64,000 bases of DNA from Bdellovibrionia bacterium (GTDB lineage: Bacteria > Bdellovibrionota > UBA1018). The stretch lies in the NCBI GenBank assembly GCA_045805065.1, contig JBJMMA010000060.1, positions 15,462 to 79,461 of the forward strand, in the 5' to 3' direction. The stretch's first letter is position 1. Each line of letters starts with the position of its first letter. Below are positions 27,236 to 60,116 of the stretch, piece after piece. A model generated the notes under the pieces. It made no database searches. It was given only the letters and a program-made list of their open reading frames with translations, and had not been told where the DNA came from. A program made the translations under genes and the position numbers.

Positions 27236-27277
27236 GTGACGCGTATGCGCTACAAAAAGGAGGCGGCCACCTTTTGG
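27236..27277 (+). other. conserved 42-nt box GTGACGCGTATGCGCTACAAAAAGGAGGCGGCCACCTTTTGG (copy 1 of 3)
   Basis: Identical at 41 of 42 nt to 50455-50496 and sharing GCGCTACAAAAAGGAGGCGACCACCTTTT with 60087-60116. It abuts the stop codon of the minus-strand gene 27278..28885. Confidence 0.55.
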
Positions 27278-28885
27278 TTACTTCGATTTTTTCTTCACGC
27301 GAATGCCGCCGAATTTTCCGCCTGAAGGCTTACCTTCGTTACGGAAGCTTTTTGGCTTGCCGTAGCTTGGTTTGTCGCCAGATGCGGATCGGCCGCCAAA
27401 CGCAGGCTTTTTGCCTCTCGGACGCTCATCGAAATCTTTTGGTGAAGCTTTTGGATAAGCTGCCTTAGCGGTGAAGGACTTTCCTCCGACAGGCTTCGTG
27501 CTTGGAGCGCTGGCTCCATCGGCCGAGCCACCGACTTGAAGAATATCTCCGCGCCAGACTGGGCCAAGATGGGCGGTGTTGATTCGTCCAGGGCGCTCGG
27601 GTTCGCAAATCAGAACATCACCGGCTTTTGTGAGCGGATCACTGATGACGAGTTTGTGTGTTGGATTGCGCTTTGGAGAACGTTGATCGTTGGATGTGAT
27701 CCAAAGGTAGGAGAACTTCAGCCACAGGCGCTCAGAGCCCAGAGCTTTTGAAAACTCTGCGAACCATCTGCCTGGAACGCGCGTTGGAACGGAGAAGTGG
27801 CAATAATCTTTTCCATAAGAAAGAGGGCAAGTCTCAGCGTGAGGGCAGGGGCCCCAGAGCATGGTTGCCGTTTTCTCGATCGTCTCGGTTTGGAAGAGAC
27901 GGTTTCTTAAACGCGACAGAAACTGAGAAGTGGTTTTCGCTGCAGGCTCAACAAAGAGCACGCCGCCGCCTTGGGCTTTTTCAAGAAGGTTTGCCCAGAT
28001 TGTTTCGATCTTTGGCTTCTTCGTTGTTTCGGCTTCAGTTTCTTCGCCGTCGTAATCTTCATTACCAACTGGACCCTCTCCGCTATCTAAAAGATCGAGT
28101 GGTTCTTCATCTTCACGAGCTTTAAAGCGGTTTGGAAGCGTTTTGGCTTCGTTCATGACATGGCCCAGAAGAATGAGCGACATCGGAGCTTTGAGCTGCG
28201 CGGGCGCATCCCACCAGTTTGCTGTCTGAAGATGAACAGTCACTTTGCCGCGAAGACGTGGGAACTGATCGGAGAGCGCTTGCACGAGCGCTTTTCCGTC
28301 TTCCATGATCGTGCGCTGAGTATCGAACCAATAAAGCTCGATCGGAGGAAAGTCTCCGCCGCGCGCCTGAAGAAGGCGCAATAGAAAACCAATCGATGCA
28401 GTGCCGGGGCCTGCGCCAAGATCCGCGATTCTTAAAACGCCCTGCTTGCGGCCATGCTCAAGCGCTGCTTGAACAGCGGCATTGTGCATTTCAAAAAGCG
28501 AGACGAACTTGGCCATTTGAAGAGGGAGGAAATAAAGAAGGTAAGCCGAGCGAAACTTCGGATGCTGAAAGTAGGCAGGAATCTGCTCGGGGCGCTCTTC
28601 GGTGAAAAGCTCAGAAAGATCTTTCACGCCTTTGGAGAAAAAGCGGACGTCCTCCTTGGCGAACGGTTTATCCTTCCAGCTATCGCGAGGGCTGTAGTGC
28701 TCTTTCACGTAGGCTGGAACCATTTCGTCCACAAACCAGGTCCAGGCGGGGGGGAAATCCAGCTGAGGAGATGCCAGTTTTATGACGCTCAACGGGCGAT
28801 CACTCGACTGGTTTGAGGTTGGACGGGGGGATATCGGCTTAGGCAGGGGGGTTTTTGATCGCATGGTGTATCTTACTTGTCGCAT
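27278..28885 (-). CDS. Rsm22-like SAM-dependent methyltransferase with a Cys cluster and lysine-rich tail
   Basis: 535 aa. The SAM motif VLRIADLGAGPGTAS and the Cys cluster GPCPHAETCPLSYGKDYCHFS resemble the Rsm22/mitoribosomal methyltransferase family. The C-terminal ~90 aa are K/G/P-rich. Confidence 0.65.
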   Translation of the reverse strand: MRQVRYTMRSKTPLPKPISPRPTSNQSSDRPLSVIKLASPQLDFPPAWTWFVDEMVPAYVKEHYSPRDSWKDKPFAKEDVRFFSKGVKDLSELFTEERPEQIPAYFQHPKFRSAYLLYFLPLQMAKFVSLFEMHNAAVQAALEHGRKQGVLRIADLGAGPGTASIGFLLRLLQARGGDFPPIELYWFDTQRTIMEDGKALVQALSDQFPRLRGKVTVHLQTANWWDAPAQLKAPMSLILLGHVMNEAKTLPNRFKAREDEEPLDLLDSGEGPVGNEDYDGEETEAETTKKPKIETIWANLLEKAQGGGVLFVEPAAKTTSQFLSRLRNRLFQTETIEKTATMLWGPCPHAETCPLSYGKDYCHFSVPTRVPGRWFAEFSKALGSERLWLKFSYLWITSNDQRSPKRNPTHKLVISDPLTKAGDVLICEPERPGRINTAHLGPVWRGDILQVGGSADGASAPSTKPVGGKSFTAKAAYPKASPKDFDERPRGKKPAFGGRSASGDKPSYGKPKSFRNEGKPSGGKFGGIRVKKKSK

Positions 28886-28937
28886 ACCTCGTGCTGGAGT
28901 GTCTAGCTGACCGGCGAAAACGTGCTACTCTTTATAT

Positions 28938-29450
28938 ATGAGTTTGAAGGGAAGCCTTAAAGATGTTGGACCGATCGAGCTGAATCTTCCCAAAAGAAGT
29001 TTCTGGCGGGATCGGATTCGACAGATTTGGGCATTTTATTGTCCACTTTGTAACGTTCCAAGACGAGTTCCTTACCAACCGCGACCGGGCTTCAAGCACA
29101 TGGCTCAGGTGGGATTAACGGCGGTCGTTTTTATGCTGGCCACCTGGAGCTGGTTTGAGTGGAAGGGGATTGTCAGCTTCTTTCCTCTTTGGTCCGTTTT
29201 TGAGGTGATCTATCGCGCTCGTGTGCGCGCTGCGTTGGCCTGTGATCGTTGCGGATTTGACCCCTATCTCTACCTGATTGACGTGCCTCGAGCGCGCGAA
29301 GTGGTTGAAAATCATTGGCGAAAAAAGTTTGCTGATAAAGGGATTCCTTACCCATCAAAGCCATCATTAAACCCATCTGGGGCACCGGCAAATGCCAAGC
29401 CTGCAGGGGGAGCGGGCACTAAAAGCGGTTCTCCCGAAATGGTCACTTGA
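28938..29450 (+). CDS. hypothetical membrane protein with a CxxC...CxxC zinc-ribbon-like motif
   Basis: 170 aa, containing CPLCN...CDRCG and one TM helix (VGLTAVVFMLATWSWF). It lies upstream of ssb. Confidence 0.45.
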   Translation: MSLKGSLKDVGPIELNLPKRSFWRDRIRQIWAFYCPLCNVPRRVPYQPRPGFKHMAQVGLTAVVFMLATWSWFEWKGIVSFFPLWSVFEVIYRARVRAALACDRCGFDPYLYLIDVPRAREVVENHWRKKFADKGIPYPSKPSLNPSGAPANAKPAGGAGTKSGSPEMVT

Positions 29451-29483
29451 CAGCTGTTGCTGCGCAACGCTAGACCTTCAGGC

Positions 29484-29999
29484 ATGTCTGTCAATAAAGT
29501 TATTTTGGTGGGGCGCTTGGGGCAGAATCCAGAAGTGCGATACACGCCGTCGGGCGCAGCTGTCGCAAACTTCAGTGTTGCAACCAACGAATCATGGTCC
29601 GATAAGAACGGCCAGAAACAGGAACGTACCGAGTGGCACAAGGTTGTCGTTTGGGGCAAGCTCGCCGAGCTTTGCAATCAGTTCCTCGCTAAGGGTCGCC
29701 AGGTTTATCTCGAAGGTCGCTTGCAGACCCGCCAATGGCAGGACAAGGACGGACAGACCAAGTACACGACCGAAATCCAGGCTCAAACCATTCAGTTCTT
29801 GGGCGGCCAAGGCGCTGAGCGTGGTCCCGGAATGGATCAAAGCATGGGCCAAAGCATGGGCGGCGGTAACAGCGGTTACGGCCAAGGCGGCGGTGGCGGT
29901 TATAACCGCGGAGCCCCACAAGGTGCTGGCCCTTCGGGCCCAGGTCCTCAGTTTGGAGCAGAAGAGCCTTCTTTCACTGAAGACGATATTCCGTTCTGA
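29484..29999 (+). CDS. ssb: single-stranded DNA-binding protein
   Basis: [38 protein letters not shown] is the OB-fold N-terminus. The tail is G/Q-rich and ends with the acidic tip DDIPF. The track ORF opens at an upstream TTG (29457). Confidence 0.85.
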
Positions 30000-30001
30000 A
30001 C

Positions 30002-30739
30002 ATGCGCGCGCTCATTGTCGTTCCTACATATAACGAATTAGAAAACATCCAGAATCTTGCACAATCGGTCATGGCGGTCATCCCACCTAACGTGGACCTC
30101 CTGATTGTGGACGACAATTCTCCTGATGGAACTGGAAAGCTTGCCGATCAGCTTGCTGCACAGGATTCGCGGATTCACGTCCTGCATCGCGCCCGTAAAA
30201 TGGGCCTGGGCACGGCTTATGTGAATGGCTTTAACTGGGGACTTGAGCGGGGCTACGAAGCCTTGATCGAGATGGATGCGGACTTCTCGCACGACCCTAA
30301 GTACCTGCCGCGCATGCTCGAGCTTCTTGAGATCAATGATGTGGTGATCGGCTCCCGTTATGTTCCAGGTGGCGGAACCGTGAACTGGGGAATGGGGCGC
30401 AAAGTCCTGAGCCGTGGCGGAAGCATGTACTCGCGTCTGATCTTGGGCGCGGGCATTCGTGACTTTACCGGTGGCTTCAATGGCTGGCGCCGTAAGGTGA
30501 TCGAATCCGTGGATCTGCCATCGCTTCGATCGGACGGCTATTCCTTTCAGATTGAGCTGAAGTACCGCGCATTTCTCAAAGGCTTCAAAATTACCGAGTT
30601 TCCAATTGTTTTCGAAGATCGGAAAGTCGGGAAGTCAAAAATGCATCGCCGGATCGTGATTGAAGCGCTTCTTCGCGTTTGGGAGTTTCGCTTCAAATCC
30701 CCGTTCCGCCAGGCACTCGTTCAAACTCAGCGTCATTGA
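30002..30739 (+). CDS. GT2 polyprenyl-phosphate glycosyltransferase (Dpm1/ArnC-like; polyprenol-P-mannose or similar synthase)
   Basis: 245 aa. The GT-A signatures are present: VVPTYNELENI, the DXD motif IVDDNSPDGT, and DADFSHDP. Confidence 0.7.
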   Translation: MRALIVVPTYNELENIQNLAQSVMAVIPPNVDLLIVDDNSPDGTGKLADQLAAQDSRIHVLHRARKMGLGTAYVNGFNWGLERGYEALIEMDADFSHDPKYLPRMLELLEINDVVIGSRYVPGGGTVNWGMGRKVLSRGGSMYSRLILGAGIRDFTGGFNGWRRKVIESVDLPSLRSDGYSFQIELKYRAFLKGFKITEFPIVFEDRKVGKSKMHRRIVIEALLRVWEFRFKSPFRQALVQTQRH

Positions 30740-30771
30740 CACTTCGAGGTTTACATCCTTAATATTTAAGG

Positions 30772-31689: not shown

Positions 31690-31725
31690 GAGTCGTCCCT
31701 GACTCTCGACCTCATTCAGTTCAGA

Positions 31726-47647: not shown

Positions 47648-48817
47648 TCAGACTTGAGCGAGCGCTTGCTCGAGATCAGCTTTGAGATCCGCAAGATCTT
47701 CAATGCCGACGCTTACGCGCACCAGGTTGTCATGAATGCCAAGCGCTTTGCGGCTTTCTGCCGGAACGCTTGCGTGAGTCATGATCGCTGGATGCTCGAT
47801 GAGCGATTCAACGCCACCTAGGCTTTCAGCCAGGGTGAAAAGCTTCACGTTCTCTAAGAAGGTGCGAGCTTGTGGCAAGCCGCCTTTGATGAAGAAGGTG
47901 ATCATTCCACCAAAGCCCGTCATCTGCTTGCGAGCCAGCTGATGCTGAGGGTGAGACTCGAGGCCTGGGTAGACGACGCTCTCAACTTTAGGATGCTTCT
48001 CCAGATACTTGGCGATTTCCATGGCGTTCTCTGCGTGGCGCTCCATGCGAACATGGAGGGTCTTGAGACCGCGCATGACGAGGAAGCAATCCATCGGAGC
48101 AGGGACTGCGCCGACAGCGTTTTGCAAGAACTTGAGCTGCGTGTAGAGTGCGTCGTTGCTGGTGACCAGAATGCCGCCGACCACATCGCTGTGGCCGTTC
48201 ATGTACTTGGTGATGCTGTGAACGACAACATCAGCGCCCAAGGACAATGGCTTCTGGAAGTAGGAGCTCATGAACGTGTTATCAACAACCGAGATCACAC
48301 CGCGCTTCTTGGCCATCGCTGCAATTGCTGCGATGTCGATGAGCTTGAGCATTGGGTTGGTTGGTGTTTCAACCCAGACCATCTTGGTGTTTGGGCGAAA
48401 CGCGGCTTCTGCCTTGGCGAGATCCGAAAGATCCACAAAGGAGAATTCGATTCCGTAGTTCTTGAACACCTTATCGAAGATGCGGAAAGTGCCGCCGTAG
48501 ACGTCATCCGAGCATACGACATGATCGCCGCTCTTGAGCGTCTGCATGATCGTCGCAGTCGTTGCAAGGCCAGACGAGAAGGCGAGGCCATACTTGCCAC
48601 CTTCAAGAGCTGCCACGCATTGCTGATACGCCGTACGCGTTGGATTGTCCGTACGGGAGTACTCATAGCCACGGTGTTCGCCAGGCGATGCTTGAGCGTA
48701 CGTCGAGGTTTGATAAATCGGGGTCATGACCGCGCCCGTGACCGAGTCCGGTTCCTGACCTGCGTGAATGGCCTTGGTGCCAAAGCCCATCTTTTTCTCT
48801 TCAGTATATTGGCTCAC
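47648..48817 (-). CDS. cystathionine gamma-lyase / gamma-synthase (PLP-dependent Cys/Met metabolism family)
   Basis: AIHAGQ...TPIYQTSTY are present, together with the PLP-lysine region SITKYMNGHSDVVGG. The GTG start overlaps the CBS stop by 4 nt (GTGA), which suggests translational coupling. Confidence 0.8.
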   Translation of the reverse strand: MSQYTEEKKMGFGTKAIHAGQEPDSVTGAVMTPIYQTSTYAQASPGEHRGYEYSRTDNPTRTAYQQCVAALEGGKYGLAFSSGLATTATIMQTLKSGDHVVCSDDVYGGTFRIFDKVFKNYGIEFSFVDLSDLAKAEAAFRPNTKMVWVETPTNPMLKLIDIAAIAAMAKKRGVISVVDNTFMSSYFQKPLSLGADVVVHSITKYMNGHSDVVGGILVTSNDALYTQLKFLQNAVGAVPAPMDCFLVMRGLKTLHVRMERHAENAMEIAKYLEKHPKVESVVYPGLESHPQHQLARKQMTGFGGMITFFIKGGLPQARTFLENVKLFTLAESLGGVESLIEHPAIMTHASVPAESRKALGIHDNLVRVSVGIEDLADLKADLEQALAQV

Positions 48818-50214
48818 GTGCGGTTCCCCATAAAAGTTAACAAGTCGATCTTGGTGATGATTCCCAGGATCTTGCCTTGTTGAGAAGGATCATTGACCAG
48901 CGGGATCTTTCCAGCGGTCACAAGACGAGAGACCTTTTCAACAGGATCGCTTGGCGTGACGAATTCCACGGCAGACATCACAAGGCTTTCGATTGTGTCG
49001 GAGGTCTTGATCTTGCCTTCGTAAAGAGCGGAAAGAAGTCCGCTCTCGGTCACGATTCCCTTGATCCAGCCTGCAGCGTCGGTCACAGGAAGCTGGCTGA
49101 TGCTCTTTTCGCGCATCATTTCGATCACAGCAGAAACTTTCTGAGTTTGCTGGATCATCATGACGTTCTGATCCTTGCTGCTCATGGAGCGGAGGACGTC
49201 AGCCACGGTTCCGATCGAGTTTGCTTCTAAGAAGCCTGCTTCGCGCATCCAATCGTCGTTGTAAACTTTGGACATGTAGCGATTGCCGCTGTCTGGAAGG
49301 ATGACGAGAACCTTCTTGCCCTTGAGCTTATCGCCCTGGCTCTTGATCCAACGGACCGCGCCGCAAACTGCGGAGCCCGAGGAGATGCCGGAGTAGATGC
49401 CTTCTTTGGTGAGAAGCTCACGGGTCATGAGGAAGGATTCTTTATCTTCGACCACAACCATGTCATCCACGACGGAGAAGTCGTAGTTCTTTGGAATGAA
49501 GTCTTCGCCGATTCCTTCGATCTTGTAAGTCTTAGGAAGGGTCTGCATCTTTCCGGTCTTGTAATAGTCGTAAACGATCGAGCCTTTCGGATCGACGGCG
49601 ACCATCTGAACGGATGGCTTCTTCTCCTTGATGAACTTGCCGATGCCGCAGATCGTTCCACCGGTTCCAATGCCTGCGACGATGACGTCGACGTCTGGGA
49701 ACTGGCTCAGGATTTCTGGGCCCGTGGTGTTGTAGTGGGCTTCGCGGTTTGAAAGATTATCGTACTGATTGAGATAGATCGCATTCTCGGTTTCGCGAGC
49801 CAAGCGACGAGACACTTGGTAGTAGCTGCGAGGATCATCTGGCTCGACAGCAGTCGGAGTCACGACGACCTTTGCGCCGAATGCGCGCAGGTTTTGAATC
49901 TTCTCAGAGGACATTTTGTCTGGAAGAACGAAAATGCACTTGTAGCCTTTGATCGCGGAAGCGATTGCGAGGCCCACGCCGGTGTTGCCGCTCGTGCCTT
50001 CAACGATCGTCCCACCTGGCTTGATGATGCCTTTTTTCTCAGCGTCTTGAATCATCCACCAGCCGATACGATCCTTGATCGAGCCGCCTGGATTACAGAA
50101 CTCGAGCTTGGCGTAGACTTCGGCTTGGACGCCTTCGGTGACACGATTGAGACGAACGATCGGCGTATTGCCAATCGCTTGCAGAACATTTTCATAGACT
50201 TGTGAATGAGGCAT
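48814..50214 (-). CDS. cystathionine beta-synthase (PLP domain plus tandem CBS pair)
   Basis: The CysK-like core reads NPGGSIKDRIG...GTSGNTGVGLA...GIGTGGTICG. It is followed by two CBS domains. Together with the downstream lyase it gives a reverse transsulfuration pair. Confidence 0.85.
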   Translation of the reverse strand: MPHSQVYENVLQAIGNTPIVRLNRVTEGVQAEVYAKLEFCNPGGSIKDRIGWWMIQDAEKKGIIKPGGTIVEGTSGNTGVGLAIASAIKGYKCIFVLPDKMSSEKIQNLRAFGAKVVVTPTAVEPDDPRSYYQVSRRLARETENAIYLNQYDNLSNREAHYNTTGPEILSQFPDVDVIVAGIGTGGTICGIGKFIKEKKPSVQMVAVDPKGSIVYDYYKTGKMQTLPKTYKIEGIGEDFIPKNYDFSVVDDMVVVEDKESFLMTRELLTKEGIYSGISSGSAVCGAVRWIKSQGDKLKGKKVLVILPDSGNRYMSKVYNDDWMREAGFLEANSIGTVADVLRSMSSKDQNVMMIQQTQKVSAVIEMMREKSISQLPVTDAAGWIKGIVTESGLLSALYEGKIKTSDTIESLVMSAVEFVTPSDPVEKVSRLVTAGKIPLVNDPSQQGKILGIITKIDLLTFMGNRT

Positions 50215-50310
50215 AGGGGGGATTTATCGCACAATACGCCGCGCGGCGCAACGGAACCAAAAGGTGGTCGCCTACTTTTGGTAGCGATAGTGCGTCAAGG
50301 TTCTTTATCC

Positions 50311-50440
50311 GAGTAAAACAAAGCGAATAGGGCTCTTTAGCTAAAATCCCTCGTTGCGACTTCCTGTCGCATGCCCATTCGGCATCCTGCCTGGGCACGA
50401 CTCGGTTTTTACCTAAAGAGCCCTATTCGCTTTGTTTAAC
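50311..50440 (+). repeat. copy C of the hairpin element family
   Basis: The arms GAGTAAAACAAAGCGAATAGGGCTCTTTAGCTAAAA and TTTTACCTAAAGAGCCCTATTCGCTTTGTTTAAC pair with one mismatch. The core is TCCCTCGTTGCGACTTCCTGTCGCATGCCCATTCGGCATCCTGCCTGGGCACGACTCGG. Relative to copy A it has a compensatory U-A to G-C change (TTCCCA/TGGGAA becomes TGCCCA/TGGGCA). Confidence 0.75.
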
Positions 50441-50454
50441 CAGGTTCGTTAATT

Positions 50455-50496
50455 GTGACGCGTATGCGCTACAAAAAGGAGGCGACCACCTTTTGG
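50455..50496 (+). other. conserved 42-nt box (copy 2 of 3): GTGACGCGTATGCGCTACAAAAAGGAGGCGACCACCTTTTGG
   Basis: It has a one-nucleotide difference from the 27236 copy. Confidence 0.55.
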
Positions 50497-50501
50497 AAAC
50501 G

Positions 50502-50537
50502 AAATGCCCCGCACTTTTGGGGTGCGAGGCATTTTAG
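50502..50537. terminator. GC-rich hairpin terminator (ATGCCCCGCAC-TTTTGGG-GTGCGAGGCAT) downstream of the 50560(-) gene
   Basis: Ten of eleven stem pairs form. There are T-runs on both sides, which is consistent with bidirectional termination. Confidence 0.5.
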
Positions 50538-50559: not shown

Positions 50560-51411
50560 TTATTTGCAGGTGATGGATTCGAATCGGGAGAGTTTGGAGT
50601 AGTCGACTTCAGTGACTACGATTACGGTGCCCCCGAGGCTTGCGCTATCTTTCGCTTTGAGGCCCTTTAAGTGTCCATTTTCATCAACAGAGGCATAATC
50701 ACTGCCGCTGACTTCGCTCTGTGAGTAGGAGGTCGCATTCTGATATTGAAGGAACTTGCAGATTCCTTGTGCGACTGGCTCCGATCTCTCATTTTCTACG
50801 TGGATGGTATCCACTGGAATCCCTAAGAACAGGGCTTTTGCGTATTTGTTTTCGGTTCCGAAATAGAATTTCTTGCCGTTCACCATGGCAAAAGGACGAA
50901 TGAATGTGACGGAACCGTCGTTGTTTTCCATGACCTGATCCGCGCTCATGCGATTGTTGATCGCTTGGGAGTTCGTACGAGCGATTTTAACCAAGTCTTC
51001 GGAAATGTAGTACTCGCCGTCATTTTCGTAACCCGCGAGGACGGACATTTCGTGAGCAGTGAGGCCGAGCTTTTGGTTCAGGTCCAGCTTTTCCCACTCG
51101 TTGACGAGAAGGTCCGTTTGTCCAGTGGCAGGGTTGGAGCGAGCTTGGCGATCCAGTTGCACTACGGGTAAGCATCTTAAGTTTCTTTTCACTTGAATCA
51201 GATCGTCCAGGCGAACCAGCGGATTGATTGCGTTGATTTTGTCCTGGCCGGCAAGCGCGAGAGTTTTTACGATCTCGCCCATGAGGTTGGCGTATTCGAG
51301 GCAGCGAGCATCGCCACCGCCGCCTGAGCGGGGGCCGGCGTGGGCAGGGCTCACAAGAAGACTTGTGAGAAGAGTGAAGGCAAAGATCGAAGACGAAAGT
51401 TTGCGGGACAT
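50560..51411 (-). CDS. secreted GGGGD-C family protein (paralog 2 of 3, divergent from the TIGR02147-like regulator at 51586)
   Basis: Signal peptide MSRKLSSSIFAFTLLTSLLVSPAHA, then GPRSGGGGDARCLEYANLMGEIVK, with similarity to the 26112 and 52780 products in the central region. Confidence 0.6.
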   Translation of the reverse strand: MSRKLSSSIFAFTLLTSLLVSPAHAGPRSGGGGDARCLEYANLMGEIVKTLALAGQDKINAINPLVRLDDLIQVKRNLRCLPVVQLDRQARSNPATGQTDLLVNEWEKLDLNQKLGLTAHEMSVLAGYENDGEYYISEDLVKIARTNSQAINNRMSADQVMENNDGSVTFIRPFAMVNGKKFYFGTENKYAKALFLGIPVDTIHVENERSEPVAQGICKFLQYQNATSYSQSEVSGSDYASVDENGHLKGLKAKDSASLGGTVIVVTEVDYSKLSRFESITCK

Positions 51412-51585
51412 GGGTACTCCTAATTAACTCAAATAGCCGACCGTTTTTATCATGTTTTATGGGCGTGTTCCAGCGGCTTTTGGAACTGGCCCTCACTGGG
51501 GTCGAGCGGGAAAATAGGGCAAAATGAGCTGACGCGATAGGTCAATATTGTCAATAAATAACGAAAGTCGTGCTATATTGGCACA

Positions 51586-52380
51586 ATGAAGCCCTTTGAG
51601 TTTAATGACTACAGACTCTACCTCGATGCTCGAATCAAAGCGGAGTGGGGCGCGATCACTCGTGTAGCCAAGGCGGCAAATTGCCAGCGATCGTATTTGT
51701 CGAGAGCGCTTAAGGGAGAGGTTCTTCTCACTCCCGATCATCTGCATGGCATCTGTGAGTTTTGGCGTCTCTCAGAAGAGGAGACCGAATATCTCATGCT
51801 GCTTCTTGAAAAAGCGCGCGCCTCCACGCGCTCTTATCGTGAGCGAGTGGAGAGAAAGCTTTCGCTGCTTCTGCGTGAGCAGGAAGATCTCGCAAAGCGA
51901 TTGCATACGCCAAGAATTCCCACGACGGATCGGGAGCTTCTTTACTATTCAGCGTGGCATTGGATCATGATTCACATGAGTACGTCGGTTCCTTCGCTTC
52001 AGACTGAAAAAGCGATGTCTCAGCATCTGAATCTTTCGCCTGAGCTCGTTCGATTCGCGCTGACTCAGCTTGCGGAATGGGGGCTTGTCAAACGGGAAGG
52101 TGATCGATGGAAATTTGCCTCAGGCAATATTCATCTTCCAAAAAACTCGCCCCTCATTGGCCAGCACCACGCGCATTTCAGACAGAAGGCGGTTGAGGAT
52201 TCACTTCTGCCTTATGGAGATGGGCTACATTACTCACAGCTTCAAGCGATGGAAGAGGAGACTTTCCGCGAGATCAAAGCGCTCTTTTTGCGATCCATTG
52301 ATGATTCTTTGAAGCTTGCGGATCCAGCGAAAGAAGATAGGCTTGTTGCCGTGAGTCTGGATGTTTTTCGGGTTTATTGA
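51586..52380 (+). CDS. TIGR02147-like putative HTH regulator (paralog 2 of 3)
   Basis: MKPFEFNDYRLYLDARIKAEWGAITRVAKAANCQRSYLSRALKGEVLLTPDHLHGICEFWRLSEEETEYLMLL parallels the other two paralogs. A -10-like TATATT lies 8 nt upstream of the ATG with no SD (possibly leaderless). A GTCAATA direct repeat lies upstream. Confidence 0.65.
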   Translation: MKPFEFNDYRLYLDARIKAEWGAITRVAKAANCQRSYLSRALKGEVLLTPDHLHGICEFWRLSEEETEYLMLLLEKARASTRSYRERVERKLSLLLREQEDLAKRLHTPRIPTTDRELLYYSAWHWIMIHMSTSVPSLQTEKAMSQHLNLSPELVRFALTQLAEWGLVKREGDRWKFASGNIHLPKNSPLIGQHHAHFRQKAVEDSLLPYGDGLHYSQLQAMEEETFREIKALFLRSIDDSLKLADPAKEDRLVAVSLDVFRVY

Positions 52381-53730: not shown

Positions 53731-53982
53731 AGGGACTCCTATTTATTTTCGCCGCAGCGGTAGGGTTGTATTATTGTTGACTATTGAAGTCAACAAATGG
53801 GTTCTGGTTTAATTTAGCCGTAGTTTTAAAGAGTTAACCTCGCCGTCACCCTCCCTTAGCTTGCTGCGGCTATTTGAGGGTGACGACTTGAGCGGTGTTT
53901 TAACGCGGTGCATGCGTTTGAGATAGATATGTTTTATAAAAATACATTCGAAAAACTGACTATTTACTCAATAATTGAGGAA

Positions 53983-54804
53983 ATGCTCTTTGAATATCGC
54001 GACTATAAAAAATATCTCAATGCGGCTCTCTCAACGGGAGGGGCTTCGCGTGGAAGTCGCACTCGCCTGGCCGAGGCGCTTCGATGTCAGACCGCATTTA
54101 TCTCGCATGTGCTGAATGGCAACTCGCATTTCAGTCTTGAGCATGCGGTGGTGATCTCGCGCTTTCTCAATCACACGCCGGATGAATCGAAGTATTTCAT
54201 TCTCCTCGTTAGCCTGGGGCGTGCCGGATCCAAAGAGCTTGAGGATCATTTCAAGGCGCAGATCGATGAGATGCAGAAAAAGCGTGCGCAGATCAAAGAG
54301 CGCATTACTGTCGATCGCGCGCTGACGGCAGAAGCCCAGATTCGATACTACAGTGCCTGGTATTACTCGGCGATTCACGTGGCGACGTCAATCTCTGCGC
54401 TGCAGACGCGAGATGCGCTTGCCTCAGCGTTGAATCTTTCGCCAGCTCTGGTGAATGAATGCCTGGAGTTTCTGGCTGAACACGGCCTCGTGGTCGCGAA
54501 GAAAGACAGATATGTGATTGGTCCGGTGCGGATGCATCTCGGCGCAGATTCGCCGATGATCTCAAGGCTTCACGCCAACTGGCGCCTGCAAGCCATGCAG
54601 TCGATGGAACGCCCGGTGGCTAGAAATACAAGTGATCTGCATTACTCCACTGTCCTTACGATTTCGCACGAAGATGCAAAGCGGGTGAGAGAAGCGTTGC
54701 TTCGTGCAGTCGATGAAACCGAAAAGATCTTCCGGCCATCACCCGAAGAAGTCGTCTACTGCGTCGGAATGGACTGGTTTCGTGTCTCGCGAGATGGAAG
54801 CTGA
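53983..54804 (+). CDS. TIGR02147-like putative HTH regulator (paralog 3 of 3)
   Basis: The start is chosen at MLFEYRDYKKYL by paralog alignment, with GAGGAA just upstream. The track ORF opens at 53908. Confidence 0.6.
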   Translation: MLFEYRDYKKYLNAALSTGGASRGSRTRLAEALRCQTAFISHVLNGNSHFSLEHAVVISRFLNHTPDESKYFILLVSLGRAGSKELEDHFKAQIDEMQKKRAQIKERITVDRALTAEAQIRYYSAWYYSAIHVATSISALQTRDALASALNLSPALVNECLEFLAEHGLVVAKKDRYVIGPVRMHLGADSPMISRLHANWRLQAMQSMERPVARNTSDLHYSTVLTISHEDAKRVREALLRAVDETEKIFRPSPEEVVYCVGMDWFRVSRDGS

Positions 54805-54805
54805 A

Positions 54806-54868
54806 CCGAACAAATCATAAATAAGAACCTCAGTTAAAAACCGAGGTTCTTATTTATGATTTGTTCGG
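54806..54868. terminator. perfect 26-bp inverted repeat hairpin (bidirectional terminator between convergent genes)
   Basis: CCGAACAAATCATAAATAAGAACCTC, loop AGTTAAAAACC, GAGGTTCTTATTTATGATTTGTTCGG. The stop codons of both flanking genes lie within 6 nt of the stem. Confidence 0.65.
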
Positions 54869-54874
54869 CTCTGG

Positions 54875-55402
54875 TTATTTGCAGGGGCTGACGACAAAAC
54901 CGCCGATGAAGGAGCCGAGTACTTTGCCGTTCTTATCATTTGCTTCGATGATTGCGCTCATTCCGTAAACGGTTGCGGCGCCGACTTGGTAGACGCGAAC
55001 GGAGCGCACTGCCTTGAGGTCGATGCCTGCGCTGAAAAATCCGTTCATGGCTGGGTCGTTCACAAGACTGTAAGCATGGACGAGCAGTCTTTCGCCGAGA
55101 TTAAGCTGAGCGAGATACTCATCCGAAGGATCGTTGAGGTCTTGGTCAATAGGGTGAGTGATCAGGTGGAAGGACATTTCAGCGGTGTCTTCGTAGCTCG
55201 ATGTTTTTCCATTCACGGTCTGAGTGACTTGAGCGCGAAGGCCGCCATGGTCCTTGTATACGGTCATCGTCGTTGGAACGATCTCACCGGATCCATCCAT
55301 TTTCTTCAGATCTGAAGAGCACGTCTTCACGGGAAGTGCAGTCGCTCCCAAAGCTTGAACAGACAAAAGGACGCTCAGCGTAGAAATGAGAAAAGTCTTC
55401 AT
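54875..55402 (-). CDS. small secreted protein, member of a 4-paralog family (N-terminal KTC, C-terminal PCK)
   Basis: Signal peptide MKTFLISTLSVLLSVQALGA. It is 55-60% identical by eye to the 58052..58573 product. Confidence 0.6.
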   Translation of the reverse strand: MKTFLISTLSVLLSVQALGATALPVKTCSSDLKKMDGSGEIVPTTMTVYKDHGGLRAQVTQTVNGKTSSYEDTAEMSFHLITHPIDQDLNDPSDEYLAQLNLGERLLVHAYSLVNDPAMNGFFSAGIDLKAVRSVRVYQVGAATVYGMSAIIEANDKNGKVLGSFIGGFVVSPCK

Positions 55403-55504
55403 AGAACCTGCTTTCGTTGCGCGTTCTATCGACAGCCCCCGGGCCTGTCAAATTAATTGAAAGGGGAGACTCGGTCTGGAATGTCCTGTGACCTGTAAGG
55501 AGCG

Positions 55505-57121: not shown

Positions 57122-57209
57122 TTCGCAAACACAATTAACGAACCGATCACGATCCCAAAGCCTGGTGCATAGGGAAGCTTGAGTTTGGCTTGAGTTTGAA
57201 GGAGGAATA

Positions 57210-58031
57210 ATGAAACGAGCTTTAGAGATGGCGAATGCGGCAGTCATGATTCTTCTCACTCAAGTTTCCCTTGCCTGGGCGGATGATCCAGTCGTGCAAC
57301 TCAGTACTCCCACATACGATGGTACGGGATGTCCCTCTGGCACTGTTTCGGCGACGCTCTCGCCAGATGCCACAGCTTTAAGTTTAATTTTTGATAAGTT
57401 TTCAGTGGAGACGGGCAAGGGCGCAAGCAATATGCCCGTGGATCAGAAGAGCTGTACCTTCCAAGTTCCGATGACTGTTCCTGCTGGCTACGCCGTCACG
57501 GTCATGCGTGTGGATTATCGCGGATATCATTCTTTGCCTGCAGGATCAGTTGCAACTTTTCGATCCTCTTTCGGGTTCTTAGACGGTGCGCGTGATCACC
57601 GGCTCGGAAACAACCTTCTTCAACTTTTCCGTGGACCAACGGATGGAGACTTTTTATTTTCTCAAAACGCTACTTTCAGTGAATGGTCCGCGTGTGGTGG
57701 TAGTGTCCAGTTGCGACTCAACACGGCTCTGGGGCTGCAAGGCAGCCCGCGCGGAGAGCTTGCCACGGTGTCTATTGACTCGGCTGATATGACGGGTGAG
57801 CGCCAGTTGCAGTATGTCCTGGCGTGGAGAAAATGCGACGGAACTGTCTTGCGTCCGGGGCAACCAGGACATCCAGTCGGTCCTCTCGGACCAGGACACC
57901 CGATCGGTCCGCATGGTGGTCCACATGGAGATGGAAGGCCAGGATTGGGCGGACATGGCCCTGACCAAATGTCAGGTCGAGGCGCGCCAGACCGAGGCGG
58001 AATGGGCCGCGGCGGGCCGATACGCAGATGA
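57210..58031 (+). CDS. secreted protein, tandem paralog 2 of the GTGCPxGTVSATLSPD family, with a Gly/Pro/His-rich C-terminal tail
   Basis: RBS GGAGGAATA. GTGCPSGTVSATLSPDATALSLIFDKF is present. The C-terminal PGHPVGPLGPGHPIGPHGGPHGDG is low-complexity. Confidence 0.6.
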   Translation: MKRALEMANAAVMILLTQVSLAWADDPVVQLSTPTYDGTGCPSGTVSATLSPDATALSLIFDKFSVETGKGASNMPVDQKSCTFQVPMTVPAGYAVTVMRVDYRGYHSLPAGSVATFRSSFGFLDGARDHRLGNNLLQLFRGPTDGDFLFSQNATFSEWSACGGSVQLRLNTALGLQGSPRGELATVSIDSADMTGERQLQYVLAWRKCDGTVLRPGQPGHPVGPLGPGHPIGPHGGPHGDGRPGLGGHGPDQMSGRGAPDRGGMGRGGPIRR

Positions 58032-58051
58032 TCCAATCGGTTGCTGTAAAA

Positions 58052-58573
58052 TTATTTACAAGGGCTGACGATCAAGCCGCCGATGAAGGATCCCATGACA
58101 GCGCCCGAATCGTTCATTGCTTCGATGATGGCGGTGGTGCCGAATTCGGAGAATGCGCCGATTTGAAAGACCCGGACGGATTGAACTGCTTTGAGATCCA
58201 GACCCGCGCTGAAAACGCCTTTGAGTTCAGGATCGGTAGTGACTGCATAAGCATGAACGAGAAGTTCTTCACCCAAGTTGAGTTTTGCTCGATCTGCTGG
58301 GGTGATTCGATCAATGCGATGGTTGATCAAGTAGAAGGATTCCTGAGCTTCGTCTTCGTACGAGGTCGTTTGCCCATGGATCGTCTGGGTGACTTTTCCA
58401 CGAACTTCGCCTTGTTCTGAATAAACTGTCATTGTGGTGGGAATGACTTCGCCCGATCCGTCGAGCTTCTTGAAATCAGAGGAGCAGGACTTGAGCGGAA
58501 ATGAAGTCGCTCCCATGGCTTGAGCCGAGAGAAGAACTCCGAGTAACGACACGGTAAACGACTTCATATTCAA
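58052..58573 (-). CDS. small secreted protein, KTC...PCK family paralog
   Basis: Signal peptide SLLGVLLSAQAMGA. The C-terminus is GGLIVSPCK. Confidence 0.6.
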   Translation of the reverse strand: MNMKSFTVSLLGVLLSAQAMGATSFPLKSCSSDFKKLDGSGEVIPTTMTVYSEQGEVRGKVTQTIHGQTTSYEDEAQESFYLINHRIDRITPADRAKLNLGEELLVHAYAVTTDPELKGVFSAGLDLKAVQSVRVFQIGAFSEFGTTAIIEAMNDSGAVMGSFIGGLIVSPCK

Positions 58574-58591
58574 CCTGCTTATTGACTGGGA

Positions 58592-59128
58592 TTATTTACA
58601 AGGGGCGAGTGACAACATGACCATGAAGTAAGATCCGAGGCTCTTTCCCTTTTTATTGTAAGCTTCAAAAATCGCCGTTCCATCATCGTCACCGAATTTG
58701 TAGACCGTGACAGAGCGTACATCGTTCACGTCATAGCTGAGCTCGGACTTAACAACGGAGAGTTCCGCATCTTTAAGCTCTGAGGCCATGAAGAGCAGCA
58801 TTTCGCCTTCATTATATTTGCTTTCGATATCCTCTGCTGACTCAGCGTCTGTGTCCGAAGACGAAGACATTTCTTTGAGTAGATTTGGCCTGACCTTAAA
58901 TTTCTGAATTTTCACTTTCTCTTCTTCGGGGGCCACGGGCTTTCCATCATTCATCCCCGATACTTTGGCGATGACTGAGCCATTGTTTTTATAAACTTCG
59001 GCCTGAAGCAAGTACGGGGCTTTGCCGTCCTCGAGTTTGAATTCAGCCGTACACGTCTTAATTGGAGTCGCTGCCATGGCTTGAGCGGAGAGGAGAAGGG
59101 ATAGAATCGAAAAAGATAGAGTCTTCAT
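58592..59128 (-). CDS. small secreted protein, KTC...PCK family paralog (divergent, acidic insert)
   Basis: Signal peptide ILSLLLSAQAMA. The C-terminus is LSLAPCK. Confidence 0.6.
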   Translation of the reverse strand: MKTLSFSILSLLLSAQAMAATPIKTCTAEFKLEDGKAPYLLQAEVYKNNGSVIAKVSGMNDGKPVAPEEEKVKIQKFKVRPNLLKEMSSSSDTDAESAEDIESKYNEGEMLLFMASELKDAELSVVKSELSYDVNDVRSVTVYKFGDDDGTAIFEAYNKKGKSLGSYFMVMLSLAPCK

Positions 59129-59161
59129 AAATGCATTTCCTACTTTTGTACGCGTTAAACC

Positions 59162-59701
59162 TTATTTGCAGGGGACGGCGACATCTCCGCCTACGAAAGT
59201 TCCAAGGAGCTTGCCGGACTCATCATACGCGTCGATGATCGAGACAATTCCCAGCTGAGTCATTGGTCCGATGCGATAGGCCTTCACGGAGCGAATCGCA
59301 TTCAGGTCCACGCCGGCGCCAGGGCTGAGTCCCTTGTCCACTTCGCTCCTCAACATGGCTTTCGCAATGAGCTCTTCTCCCTTGTTCAGGTGGAGCTTGT
59401 CCGCGCCTTCGCGCTCGCTATCGTCTGCGTCGTATCCATTCTCAGTCAGCAATGCCAGGCCGGCTCTAATTTCATACTTGGAGATGCTGACATAATCCTC
59501 ACTGCTCGTTGTTTGCCCGCGAACGGTTTCGGTAATGATCACCGAGCCGTCCTCGTCCTTTAGTATTTCAAACTTTACCGAGGCATACGAACTGGAGCCT
59601 TCGTCCACCGAAGCAGTGCAAGTTTTGAACGGCGCTGGAAAGGCTGCCATTGCCTGAGCGGAGAGGAGAAGAGTCAGTGCGGAAAGAGATAGAGCTTTCA
59701 T
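59162..59701 (-). CDS. small secreted protein, KTC...PCK family paralog
   Basis: Signal peptide LTLLLSAQAMA. The C-terminus is GGDVAVPCK. Confidence 0.6.
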   Translation of the reverse strand: MKALSLSALTLLLSAQAMAAFPAPFKTCTASVDEGSSSYASVKFEILKDEDGSVIITETVRGQTTSSEDYVSISKYEIRAGLALLTENGYDADDSEREGADKLHLNKGEELIAKAMLRSEVDKGLSPGAGVDLNAIRSVKAYRIGPMTQLGIVSIIDAYDESGKLLGTFVGGDVAVPCK

Positions 59702-59939
59702 AATTTCACGGCCTACTTTCTAAGCGGCTTTATATAGGCGCCATGGAATATAGTCAACTAAATTAGTAAGGTATTATGAGAGCACGAAGTGGGTAGGCCG
59801 ACAGTGCCAGGTTTAACTTTTTTTACAGGTACTTAAGTTGAGCTGAACGATGCGGGAGGAGTCCGTGTGACCAACGGCAGGCTCCACTGGCGCCTCTCGG
59901 TTTGGTAGTTCAAACAACAGTAAATATCGAGAATGAGGA

Positions 59940-60059
59940 AAGCAAAGAGAGCTGAGAAAAGAGATAAAAACCGAGTCCTTCCCAGGCAGGATGCCGTATG
60001 GGAAGGTGACAGGATGTCACAACGAGGGCTTTTATCTCTTTTCTCAGCTCTCTTTGCTT
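59940..60059 (+). repeat. copy D of the hairpin element family, with the core inverted relative to copies A-C
   Basis: The arms AAGCAAAGAGAGCTGAGAAAAGAGATAAAAA and TTTTTATCTCTTTTCTCAGCTCTCTTTGCTT form a perfect 31-bp stem. The core CCGAGTCCTTCCCAGGCAGGATGCCGTATGGGAAGGTGACAGGATGTCACAACGAGGG is the reverse complement of the A/B/C core consensus. The downstream box is still in + orientation. Confidence 0.75.
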
Positions 60060-60086
60060 TGTTCGGATTTCAGACTTTGCTGCGGG

Positions 60087-60116
60087 TGCGCTACAAAAAG
60101 GAGGCGACCACCTTTT
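60087..60116 (+). other. conserved box (copy 3 of 3): GCGCTACAAAAAGGAGGCGACCACCTTTT, abutting the stop of the minus-strand gene 60121..60783
   Basis: A 29-nt core is shared with the 27236 and 50455 boxes. The 5' GTGACGCGTAT part is replaced here. Confidence 0.5.

What the first reader, a model, noticed from the sequence alone, without database searches (positions are those of the whole stretch)
27236..60116. Conserved 42-nt AAGGAGG-containing box after three of the four hairpin elements; core orientation flipped in one copy
GTGACGCGTATGCGCTACAAAAAGGAGGCG(G/A)CCACCTTTTGG occurs at 27236-27277 and 50455-50496 with 41 of 42 nt identical. A 29-nt version, GCGCTACAAAAAGGAGGCGACCACCTTTT, occurs at 60087-60116. 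In each case it lies 15-30 nt 3' of the long hairpin on the + strand. In each case it also lies immediately 3' of the stop codon of a minus-strand gene: it abuts TAA at 27278 and at 60121, and is 63 nt from the stop at 50560. The box contains a perfect Shine-Dalgarno (AAGGAGG), but no conserved start codon or ORF follows. The short ORFs that cover it share only the box-encoded peptide RMRYKKEATTFW and diverge immediately after, so the conservation is at the nucleotide level. In copy D the hairpin core is inverted while the box keeps its orientation. The combination of element plus box therefore exists in two relative orientations. That is what an invertible segment or a palindromic insertion would produce. 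The box could be an sRNA 3' or 5' module, a CsrA-type site (ACA...GGA), or a recombination/target site.
Basis: seen in the sequence. Interest (0 to 1): 0.7.

Follow-up and report, generated by a model that had tools for sequence, protein, structure and literature searches.

The report
Gene-end palindromic repeat flanking hairpin RNAs
The conserved "box" is a copy of a short palindromic repeat that sits at gene ends in an uncultured group of Bdellovibrio-like bacteria; it is not a ribosome-binding site or a flip-switch, and it lies next to, but is separate from, long hairpins that look like CsrA-binding RNAs.

Summary
The box is real and non-random, but the window has four copies, not three. 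A missed inverted copy (50255-50300) lies left of hairpin C, so C is bracketed by two boxes head-to-head.

Each box is a ~45-nt bipartite unit. Its head is T(G/A)ACGC-N4-5-GCGCTAC. Its palindrome is AAAAG(G/T)AGG-CGA-CCACCTTTT.

In relatives, mostly from uncultured Bdellovibrionota, the same unit occurs without the long hairpin. It appears as singletons, tandem arrays and inverted doublets. In 10 of 22 copies the palindrome end touches the TAA stop of an unrelated gene, and the head faces another hairpin 9-18 nt away.

The usual variant is AAGTAGG, so the "perfect SD" is a lineage quirk.

The long hairpins are separate elements resembling TwoAYGGAY RNA (below the Rfam threshold), with GGA loops on the opposite strand. 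The "flipped core" arises because B and D each keep one box of a symmetric arrangement. Two ortholog pairs keep the same orientation, so inversion is not needed.

Best reading: a REP/BIME-like extragenic repeat family. Its mobility and 3'-UTR role are inferred. It is a new variant of a known kind, of moderate interest.

The parts
27234..27278 (+). Box B. The head GTGACGCGTATGCGCTAC is followed by the palindrome AAAAAGGAGG-CGG-CCACCTTTTGG. The head lies 13 nt from hairpin B. The palindrome end touches the TAA stop of the Rsm22-family gene (27278-28885, minus strand).
50451..50496 (+). Box C-right. Its head lies 17 nt from hairpin C. A terminator-like hairpin and then the stop of gene 50560-51411 (minus strand) follow.
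50255..50300 (-). Its head faces hairpin C, 17-18 nt away. Its palindrome end lies 41 nt upstream of the start of the PALP/CBS-domain gene (48814-50214, minus strand). It is nearly identical in the L027 ortholog.
   Evidence: (I2, I7)
60074..60118 (+). Box D. The head is degenerate (TTGCTGCGGGTGCGCTAC) and lies 15 nt from hairpin D. The palindrome end lies about 2-4 nt from the stop of the DUF1318 gene (60121-60831, minus strand). It is absent at the orthologous sites in L027 and L032.
25064..25187 (-). Hairpin A. It has a 32-bp variable stem and a roughly 57-nt core, with no box. The strand given is the one carrying the GGA loops. In L009 the same site holds a solo box instead, and in L014 a truncated hairpin.
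27093..27222 (-). Hairpin B. It has a 36-bp perfect stem and a core with CAGGAA and CAGGAU loops on the minus strand. L015 has an orthologous hairpin; L014 and L016 lack it.
50316..50437 (-). Hairpin C. It scores 35.0 bits against TwoAYGGAY (RF01731, threshold 43) on the minus strand. Its ortholog is at L027 12811-12933.
59939..60060 (+). Hairpin D. Its core is inverted relative to A-C. It scores 35.7 bits against TwoAYGGAY on the plus strand only.
50502..50535 (-). GC-rich terminator-like hairpin (AAATGCCCCGCAC-TTTT-GGGGTGCGAGGCATTT). It lies between the stop of gene 50560-51411 and box C-right.
   Evidence: sequence read directly

Best explanation
**What the box is.** The box is one unit of a lineage-restricted family of short extragenic palindromic repeats, REP/BIME-like, in an uncultured Bdellovibrionota clade. 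The window comes from an NCBI MAG named 'Bdellovibrionia bacterium'.

**Anatomy (shown).** A unit is about 45 nt and has two parts:
- a nearly invariant palindrome, (CC)AAAAG(G/T)AGG-CGA-CCACCTTTT(GG);
- a head, T(G/A)ACGC-N4-5-GCGCTAC, that can form a second small hairpin with a variable loop.

Units occur singly, in tandem arrays with diverged members, and as head-to-head inverted pairs.

**Placement (shown).** The palindrome end points at the neighbouring ORF and often touches its TAA stop. The head points into the intergenic space, where another hairpin lies 9-18 nt away. In some lineages that hairpin is an ordinary terminator. In the window's lineage it is the long hairpin.

**The long hairpins (shown).** They are a separate kind of element that resembles TwoAYGGAY RNA. 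Each has a long variable stem that encloses two small hairpins with GGA loops. Locus C shows the full arrangement, box / hairpin / inverted box. B and D each carry only one box, on opposite sides of the asymmetric core. That is why the core looks flipped while the box does not.

**Mechanism (inferred).**
- The units were spread or rearranged as non-autonomous DNA repeats in gene-end niches.
- Hairpin elements inserted beside or between them, or were lost from them.
- When a unit is transcribed as the 3' UTR of the abutting gene, it folds into two modest stem-loops on that strand only, using G-U pairs. These could buffer the mRNA 3' end.
- The unit does not act as a Shine-Dalgarno sequence.
For: - **Non-random copies.** Four copies in the window, with 0 expected by chance.
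- **The same unit without the long hairpin.** It is found in a related MAG (L005, L007, L008), in a close relative (L009) and in metagenome contigs L017-L026.
- **Taxon.** Those contigs that were checked are Bdellovibrionota, and L032 from the CAZCBS MAG is syntenic with the window.
- **Arrangements typical of REP clusters.** An inverted doublet in L017; tandem arrays in L007, L020, L024 and L025; four units arranged as two leftward then two rightward in L021.
- **Placement.** In 10 of 22 distinct copies the palindrome end is within about 6 nt of a TAA stop. The genes concerned are functionally unrelated: flagellin, IF-3, glutamine synthetase III, two pyridine-nucleotide-disulphide oxidoreductases, cytochrome c peroxidase, a hydrolase, Rsm22 and DUF1318.
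- **Gain and loss at orthologous sites.**
  - A box follows the glutamine synthetase III gene in L023 but not in L033-L035.
  - Box D is absent in L027 and L032.
  - Site A holds a box in L009, a hairpin in the window and nothing in L012.
  - L015 carries a 177-nt indel relative to L014 and L016.
- **Repeat behaviour in assemblies.** Contigs break inside a hairpin (start of L028) and inside a box (end of L029).
- **Strand asymmetry.** 20 of 23 copies fold more stably on the strand that is sense to the abutting gene.
- **Symmetric architecture is conserved.** It is present at C and at its ortholog in L027.
- **Hairpin identity.** TwoAYGGAY hits of 35.0, 35.7 and 29.9 bits occur only on the GGA strand.
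Against: - **No mobilising enzyme found.** No transposase appears among the 25 most frequent Pfam families of the window's genes. A crude HUH/Y1 motif search of about 400 kb found nothing.
- **No target-site duplication** is evident at C, L017 or L015.
- **Copy number per genome is unknown.** The one species-representative genome with real matches has only 3 exact copies.
- **No covariation** supports an RNA structure. The unit is conserved as sequence, and its fold is weak, -8 to -18 kcal/mol per 48 nt.
- **Sequence conservation this strict** suggests a specific protein or nucleic-acid partner that I could not identify.
- **The tight association in the window's lineage** (7 of 8 strong boxes within 18 nt of a long hairpin) hints at a functional or mechanistic coupling that 'independent elements' does not explain.
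- **Six copies do not fit a 3'-UTR role.** They lie upstream of a gene start in the same orientation.
Confidence: 0.5

Rival explanations
1. The box and the long hairpin form one composite mobile element, like a MITE. The boxes are its terminal inverted repeats, bound by a transposase, and the hairpin RNA is its cargo. B, D and A are decayed copies that lost one or both ends.
For: - C and its ortholog in L027 have the full structure, box / hairpin / inverted box.
- In the window's lineage 7 of 8 strong boxes lie within 18 nt of a hairpin.
- The 177-nt indel in L015 covers the hairpin plus a possibly degenerate box.
- Site A holds either a box or a hairpin, which could be partial deletions of one composite.
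Against: - Boxes occur without long hairpins in L005, L007, L008, L009 and nine of the ten metagenome loci; L023 has such a hairpin 64 nt away. They also form tandem arrays, which terminal repeats do not.
- The spacer between box and hairpin is not conserved across copies.
- Between the C orthologs, the inner stem and core differ as a block while the boxes are identical.
- No target-site duplication and no transposase were found.
Confidence: 0.15
2. The box is a protein operator or promoter module that controls transcription of the adjacent hairpin RNA. The analogy is the palindromic GacA box upstream of the CsrA-sponge RNAs RsmY and RsmZ.
For: - It is a strictly conserved palindrome at a fixed 13-18 nt from the hairpin foot, centred about 45 nt from the hairpin start, on one or both sides.
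- The hairpin has CsrA-type GGA loops, and Bdellovibrionota have a functional CsrA (PMC13443453).
Against: - No sigma-70-like promoter was found at any copy, and the candidate -10 hexamers in the spacers lack the key A2 and T6 positions.
- The same box sits on both sides of C, pointing inward.
- Most copies elsewhere face a plain terminator, another box, or nothing, and touch stop codons of unrelated genes.
Confidence: 0.15
3. The box is simply a bidirectional intrinsic terminator (A-tract, stem-loop, T-tract) shared by many genes.
For: - It has the A4 / stem / T4 shape, lies directly after stop codons, and sits between convergent or tandem genes.
Against: - The terminator scan finds no site at any box.
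- In L018, L019, L022, L023 and L025, and at C-right, a canonical GC-rich terminator stands beside the box.
- Terminators are not conserved base for base across unrelated genes and species.
Confidence: 0.08
4. The hairpin core is an invertible segment, a phase-variation switch flipped between its perfect inverted-repeat arms, and the box is a fixed flanking signal read in one of two states.
For: - Perfect inverted arms of 31-36 bp flank an asymmetric core, and both relative orientations of core and box exist.
Against: - Both ortholog pairs keep the same core orientation: B with L015, and C with L027/L028.
- The context is itself symmetric, with a box on either or both sides, so two orientations are expected without any inversion.
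- No recombinase appears among the 25 most frequent Pfam families of the window's genes.
- Reads could not be examined.
Confidence: 0.03

Closest known systems
REP / BIME / REPIN elements (repetitive extragenic palindromes, mobilised by RAYT transposases)
   Same: - It is a short, imperfect, extragenic palindrome conserved as sequence.
- It occurs as singletons, clusters and inverted doublets, sometimes with other DNA inserted between the two partners of a doublet.
- It is often just 3' of genes and is gained and lost between relatives (features per PMC3733652).
- REPs within about 15 nt of a stop codon are known to affect translation of the upstream gene (Liang, Rudd and Deutscher 2015, recalled from memory and not checked here).
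   Different: - It is bipartite, with two adjacent hairpins.
- Its stem is A/T-rich rather than GC-rich.
- GTAG lies between the two hairpins and CGTC inside the head, not as an unpaired tag at one end.
- No RAYT gene was found and the copy number is unknown.
- It touches the stop codon more tightly than is usual for REPs.
Correia-type MITEs of Neisseria and similar miniature inverted-repeat elements
   Same: - A 100-250-nt near-palindrome with terminal inverted repeats (locus C).
- Intergenic, next to gene ends, and present or absent between strains.
   Different: - No TA or other target-site duplication was seen.
- The terminal unit also lives alone and in tandem arrays.
- The interior is a structured RNA-like module whose stem sequence differs in every copy.
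TwoAYGGAY RNA (Rfam RF01731; proposed CsrA-binding sRNA, PMC4333381). This comparison is for the neighbouring long hairpin, not the box.
   Same: - A long basal stem encloses two hairpins whose loops carry (A/C)(A/U/C)GGA(U/A).
- The match is strand-specific and spans the full model: 35.0, 35.7 and 29.9 bits.
   Different: - All scores are below the 43-bit threshold, and copies A and B give no hit.
- The loops are CAGGAU and CAGGAA rather than AYGGAY in the window.
- The phylum is new: the family is known from human gut samples, Clostridiales and gamma-proteobacteria.
- The basal stem is 31-36 bp, nearly perfect, and different in every copy.
GacA box (upstream activating sequence) of rsmY and rsmZ
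   Same: A conserved palindrome at a fixed distance from a GGA-loop RNA gene.
   Different: - It occurs on both sides of the RNA.
- It is mostly found away from any such RNA.
- It touches stop codons and forms tandem arrays.
DNA uptake sequences (DUS/USS) paired as terminators
   Same: A sequence-conserved motif, often as inverted pairs just downstream of genes.
   Different: - It is far longer (about 45 nt against 9-12 nt).
- It is far rarer (about 1 per 16 kb here against about 1 per kb).
- Competence in this clade is unknown.

Membership tests
REP / REPIN-RAYT | Short (20-40 nt) imperfect palindrome located outside genes | tested here: met
   The palindrome is 25 nt within a 45-nt unit, and all 22 distinct copies are intergenic.
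REP / REPIN-RAYT | Tens to hundreds of copies per genome | tested here: inconclusive
   There are 4 copies in 64 kb, and contigs break in boxes and hairpins. The only species-representative genome with real matches has 3 exact copies. No complete genome was available.
REP / REPIN-RAYT | Unpaired GTAG (or CGTC) tag at one end of the stem-loop (PMC3733652) | tested here: inconclusive
   GTAG is conserved at alignment columns 26-29, between the two hairpins. CGTC lies inside the head, GCGTCA. Neither is a terminal tag in the canonical position.
REP / REPIN-RAYT | Inverted doublets (REPINs) and mixed clusters (BIMEs) | tested here: met
   Doublets are in L017, window C and L027. Clusters are in L021 (4 units), L024 (3), L025, L020 and L007.
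REP / REPIN-RAYT | A RAYT (Y1/HUH transposase) gene flanked by the repeats | not testable with these tools
   None was seen among the 25 most frequent Pfam families of the window's genes. A crude HUH-Y motif search over about 400 kb of loci also found none. Whole genomes could not be searched.
MITE (Correia-like) | Terminal inverted repeats plus a target-site duplication | tested here: not met
   Inverted boxes flank C (I2). No consistent direct repeat flanks C, L027 C, the L017 doublet or the L015 indel.
MITE (Correia-like) | Presence/absence polymorphism between close relatives | tested here: met
   L015 against L014 and L016; L023 against L033-L035; site D against L027 and L032. Deletion explains these as well as insertion does.
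Intrinsic terminator | GC-rich stem followed by a free U-tract | tested here: not met
   The scan reports no terminator at any box. The T-tract is paired within the stem and the fold is weak.
Shine-Dalgarno / translation start | Conserved AGGAGG with a start codon 5-10 nt downstream and a conserved ORF | tested here: not met
   17 of 22 copies read AAGTAGG or another non-SD variant. No start codon or shared ORF follows.
CsrA binding site (in the box) | GGA presented in a hairpin loop | tested here: not met
   GGA is present only in the window-lineage variant, and there it lies in the stem. GGA loops are in the hairpin core instead.
TwoAYGGAY RNA, RF01731 (for the adjacent hairpin) | Score at or above the Rfam gathering threshold (43 bits) | tested here: not met
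   Scores are 35.0 (C), 35.7 (D) and 29.9 (L023). A and B give no hit at E <= 1-5. Generic miRNA-precursor models score similarly on both strands, so part of the score comes from the long stem alone.
TwoAYGGAY RNA, RF01731 (for the adjacent hairpin) | A basal stem enclosing two hairpins with AYGGAY terminal loops | tested here: inconclusive
   The architecture is the same. The loops are CAGGAU and CAGGAA in the window, and CAUGGAUG and CACGGUG in L023. Compensatory changes in both small hairpins are seen between copies and between orthologs.
Invertible DNA switch | Orientation differs between otherwise identical loci, with a recombinase nearby | tested here: not met
   The orthologs B/L015 and C/L027/L028 have the same orientation. 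No recombinase appears among the 25 most frequent Pfam families of the window's genes. Read-level heterogeneity could not be tested.

The most novel reading that the evidence does not exclude
The box and the TwoAYGGAY-like hairpin form a modular, mobile post-transcriptional cassette specific to predatory Bdellovibrionota. In this reading the box is the recognition or target site, for an unidentified recombinase or RNA-binding protein, that places CsrA-decoy hairpins at a fixed 13-18 nt from itself, directly after stop codons. Many unrelated mRNAs would then acquire CsrA-titrating 3' ends. The perfect but copy-specific stems would be kept complementary by a DNA-level templating process.
Probability: 0.12. 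Interest if true: 0.75.

Novelty: new variant of a known kind. Interest (0 to 1): 0.38.

Why it matters
**Annotation.** The result removes a tempting but wrong reading of a conserved Shine-Dalgarno or a phase switch. It gives annotators of Bdellovibrionota MAGs a defined repeat unit that explains conserved 'ORFlets', contig breaks and odd intergenic palindromes.

**Biology.** The more interesting by-product is the neighbour. Long hairpins with two GGA loops that resemble the proposed CsrA-binding TwoAYGGAY RNA occur at four copies in 64 kb. They are in a phylum where CsrA is functional but no antagonist RNA is known.

**If the coupling is mechanistic.** It would be an example of targeted placement of regulatory RNA modules at gene ends.

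Tried and rejected
- **Rfam at gathering thresholds on the whole window:** no hit. tRNA/tmRNA scan: none.
- **Sigma-70 promoter and terminator scans at all four loci:** nothing at the boxes.
- **Hand-read candidate promoter:** -35 TTTGTA/TTGGTA in the box plus a -10 in the spacer. Rejected because the -10 hexamers lack the A2 and T6 positions.
- **Sigma-54 and dif/Xer readings:** rejected on spacing, by direct reading of the sequence.
- **Mimicry of the 16S 3' end or an extended SD:** holds only for the window-lineage variant, so rejected.
- **Covariation test of a two-hairpin RNA structure for the box:** no signal, because the columns are nearly invariant.
- **Degenerate second boxes left of D, around A and right of L015:** alignment scores of 23-25.5 lie at about the 95th-98th percentile of the window background, so they are not significant.
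- **Exact look-up of the source contig by two window proteins:** failed.
- **Viral contig scans for the box and for the hairpin core:** 0 hits.
- **Literature searches** for Bdellovibrio repeats, REP, RAYT or CsrA sRNAs: nothing describing these elements.
- **Crude HUH/Y1 transposase motif search:** 0 candidates.
- **The 5 matches outside Bdellovibrionota in the genome scan:** unrelated coding sequence.
- **Choosing the hairpin's transcribed strand by folding energy:** ambiguous. Five of 7 copies favour the non-GGA strand by 1-3 kcal/mol, while Rfam hits occur only on the GGA strand.

Full report
**1. Observation**

The 29-mer of the finding matches at 27247-27275, 50466-50494 and 60088-60116 on the plus strand. 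It also matches a fourth time on the minus strand, at 50259-50287. Dinucleotide shuffles give no matches, and the 21-nt core gives the same four sites.

The 42-nt versions at 27236 and 50455 differ at one base. The box touches the ORF ends at 27278 and 60121, and lies 63 nt from the stop at 50560.

Hairpin D's core is inverted relative to A-C, while its box is not.

Its arms are 93 nt and 78% complementary (I2), and it folds at -142.8 kcal/mol, z = -12.5. No further copies exist in the window.

**2. Organism and context**

A window protein is 100% identical to a protein of an NCBI MAG named 'Bdellovibrionia bacterium'. Rsm22 homologues are from Bdellovibrionota/Oligoflexia. The 25 most frequent Pfam families of the window's genes are housekeeping and hypothetical families, and no transposase or recombinase is among them.

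**3. Anatomy of the box**

I aligned 22 distinct copies from the window and from related DNA. The unit is about 45 nt and has two parts:
- a head, T(G/A)ACGC-N4-5-GCGCTAC;
- a nearly invariant palindrome, (CC)AAAAG(G/T)AGG-CGA-CCACCTTTT(GG).

On the reverse strand this reads AAAAGGTGGTCGCCT(A/C)CTTTT-G-GTAG-CGC-NNNN-GCGTCA. That gives two adjacent small hairpins, the second with a variable loop.

Seventeen of the 22 copies lack AAGGAGG; all but one of these read AAGTAGG. The Shine-Dalgarno look, and the GGA, are therefore a minor variant found mostly in the window's own lineage.

The fold is weak. It is more stable on the reverse strand in 20 of 23 copies, because that strand can use G-U pairs. 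Pair counts show no covariation, since the columns hardly vary. The unit is conserved as sequence, not merely as shape.

**4. Where else the box occurs**

*Species-representative genomes.* A scan of 185,579 genomes found real copies in only one, MAG CAZCBS01 (L005, L007, L008). The other five matches are unrelated coding sequence. L032 shows that this MAG is syntenic with the window.

*Metagenomes.* A scan found ten loci, L017-L026. Their glutamine synthetase III is closest to Bdellovibrionales MAG proteins.

*Relatives reached through orthologous proteins.* These added L009 (a solo box) and L027-L029.

Outside the window's lineage the box stands without the long hairpin, with one exception: L023 has such a hairpin 64 nt away. 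The arrangements are:
- singletons;
- tandem arrays with diverged members in L007, L020, L024 and L025;
- a four-unit cluster in L021;
- a head-to-head doublet in L017.

*Position relative to genes.* In 10 of 22 copies the palindrome end lies within about 6 nt of a TAA stop of a gene on the opposite strand. The genes are unrelated in function: flagellin, IF-3, glutamine synthetase III, two pyridine-nucleotide-disulphide oxidoreductases, a cytochrome c peroxidase, a hydrolase, Rsm22 and DUF1318. Six copies instead lie up to 45 nt upstream of a gene start in the same orientation; three of these are the second half of a doublet.

*What the head faces.* The head always points into the intergenic space. 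In L018, L019, L022, L023 and L025 it faces a canonical GC-rich terminator 9-12 nt away. In the window's lineage it faces the long hairpin 13-18 nt away.

**5. Gain and loss**

- The box after the glutamine synthetase III gene in L023 is absent from three relatives, where the next gene overlaps or follows within 28 nt.
- Box D and hairpin D are absent at the orthologous sites of L027 and L032.
- At site A, directly after a conserved hairpin, L009 has a solo box, the window has a solo hairpin, L014 has a truncated hairpin and L012 has nothing.
- After Rsm22, the window has a box and a hairpin. L015 has the hairpin and perhaps a decayed box. L014 and L016, which have the identical Rsm22 protein, lack 177 nt. 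No direct repeats mark this indel, so deletion is as likely as insertion.
- Contigs end inside a hairpin (L028) and inside a box (L029), as expected for repeats.

**6. The long hairpins**

*Structure.* Each has a stem of 31-36 bp that is nearly perfect but different in every copy. The stem encloses a conserved core of about 57 nt with two small hairpins.

*Compensatory change.* Between the orthologous C elements of the window and L027, the boxes and outer stem are nearly identical. Eight to nine inner stem pairs and one core hairpin differ on both sides and stay complementary.

Rfam's TwoAYGGAY model matches that strand only, over its full length:

| Element | Score (bits) |
|---|---|
| Hairpin C | 35.0 |
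| Hairpin D | 35.7 |
| L023 element (loops CAUGGAUG and CACGGUG) | 29.9 |
| Hairpins A and B | no hit |

The threshold is 43 bits. Generic miRNA-precursor models reach similar scores on both strands, so part of the score reflects the long stem alone.

TwoAYGGAY has been proposed to be a CsrA-binding sRNA (PMC4333381), and Bdellovibrionota have a functional CsrA (PMC13443453). I treat the hairpins as resembling TwoAYGGAY, not as members of the family.

**7. Explaining the 'flip'**

The box head faces the hairpin in every case, whichever way the core points:
- B has core then box.
- D and L027b have box then core.
- C and its L027 ortholog have both.

The flanking context is symmetric, so both relative orientations are expected without any inversion. 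The two ortholog pairs have the same orientation. Inversion within a population cannot be excluded without reads.

**8. Interpretation**

*Shown:*
- The box is a member of a repeat family that exists independently of the long hairpin.
- It sits at ORF boundaries and is gained and lost.
- It forms arrays and doublets.
- It is not an SD, a canonical terminator or a CsrA site.

*Inferred:*
- It behaves like REP/BIME-type extragenic palindromes, non-autonomous DNA that settles in gene-end niches.
- When transcribed with the abutting gene, it forms 3'-UTR stem-loops on the strand where it folds better.

*Unexplained:*
- the strict base-for-base conservation, which implies an unidentified partner;
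- the tight contact with TAA stops;
- the near-obligate pairing with long hairpins at fixed spacing in the window's lineage (7 of 8 strong boxes).

These leave room for two rivals. One is a composite mobile element with the boxes as its ends. The other is an operator for the hairpin RNA. A plain terminator and an invertible switch are unlikely.

**9. Novelty and score**

Short extragenic palindromic repeats are a well-known kind. This family fails or leaves open several defining REP features: the position of the tag, RAYT linkage and copy number. It has its own traits: bipartite, A/T-rich stem, touching stop codons, and partnered with hairpins that resemble TwoAYGGAY.

I found no description of it in the searchable literature. 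I rate it a new variant of a known kind, with interest about 0.38. Most of that interest comes from the neighbouring GGA-loop hairpins and the possible coupling.

Noticed in passing
window 54806-54868: A fifth long hairpin. It has a 26-bp perfect A/T-rich stem (CCGAACAAATCATAAATAAGAACCTC) and an 11-nt loop. It fills the 70-nt gap between convergent genes 53908-54804 (+) and 54875-55402 (-). Its stem composition and CCTC...CGAGG apex resemble the hairpin elements, but the two-hairpin core is missing and there is no box. It may be a core-less form or the ancestral terminator type.
   Followed up: partly
window 24540-25060 (also L009 6646-7170, L012 11330-11840, L014 15275-15800): About 500 nt of non-coding sequence between rsmB and hairpin A is conserved across relatives. 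It ends in a GGTGGCTCCC-GAAA-GGGAGCCACC hairpin. There is no Rfam hit at E <= 1. It is a candidate unknown ncRNA or long leader. Boxes and hairpins insert exactly 12 nt beyond its terminal hairpin.
   Followed up: partly
window 25288-27086, 50560-52380, 53908-54804; L014 11366-15140; L027 8901-12703: Long hairpins lie next to gene pairs made of a DUF4423 (TIGR02147-like) protein and a secreted hypothetical protein. The rsmB-rsm22 interval varies like a cassette site between relatives: no cassette in L012, a beta-lactamase-like gene in L009, two DUF4423 pairs in L014 and one pair in the window. In L036 such a pair lies beside an integrase and toxin-antitoxin island.
   Followed up: partly
L023 2909-3020: This is another long hairpin that resembles TwoAYGGAY, from a different Bdellovibrionales-like organism. 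It has a 27-bp stem, a 58-nt core, and CAUGGAUG and CACGGUG loops on the minus strand (29.9 bits). It lies 64 nt from a box, with a terminator between them. My sequence HMM for the window's core missed it, so such hairpins are probably more widespread and diverse than counted here.
   Followed up: partly
window 50316-50437 vs L027 12811-12933 (alignment A3): Between the orthologous hairpins, 8-9 consecutive inner stem pairs are entirely different yet perfectly complementary, while the flanks are about 90-100% identical. Point mutation plus compensation seems too slow for this. It suggests block replacement, or arm-to-arm templating at the DNA level.
   Followed up: no
window 10456-10589: After the S1 (rpsA) gene there are three tandem copies of AAGGACGAGTAATCGTC, each a mini hairpin with a GTAA loop. 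A separate terminator-like hairpin follows at 10538-10589.
   Followed up: no
window 50215-50256 (and the L027 ortholog): The 40 nt between box C-left and the start of the PALP/CBS-domain gene (GGTTCCGTTGCGCCGCGCGGCG...AAATCCCCCCT-ATG on the gene strand) are almost fully conserved between species. They contain no purine-rich ribosome-binding site. This may be a leader element, or the start codon may be mis-set.
   Followed up: no
window 54875-55402 and 58052-59701: This is a cluster of four paralogous small secreted or lipoprotein-like genes, all ending in ...PCK, with conserved 5' and 3' ends (repeat families D2, D4, D8). Hairpin D and box D lie just upstream of this cluster.
   Followed up: no
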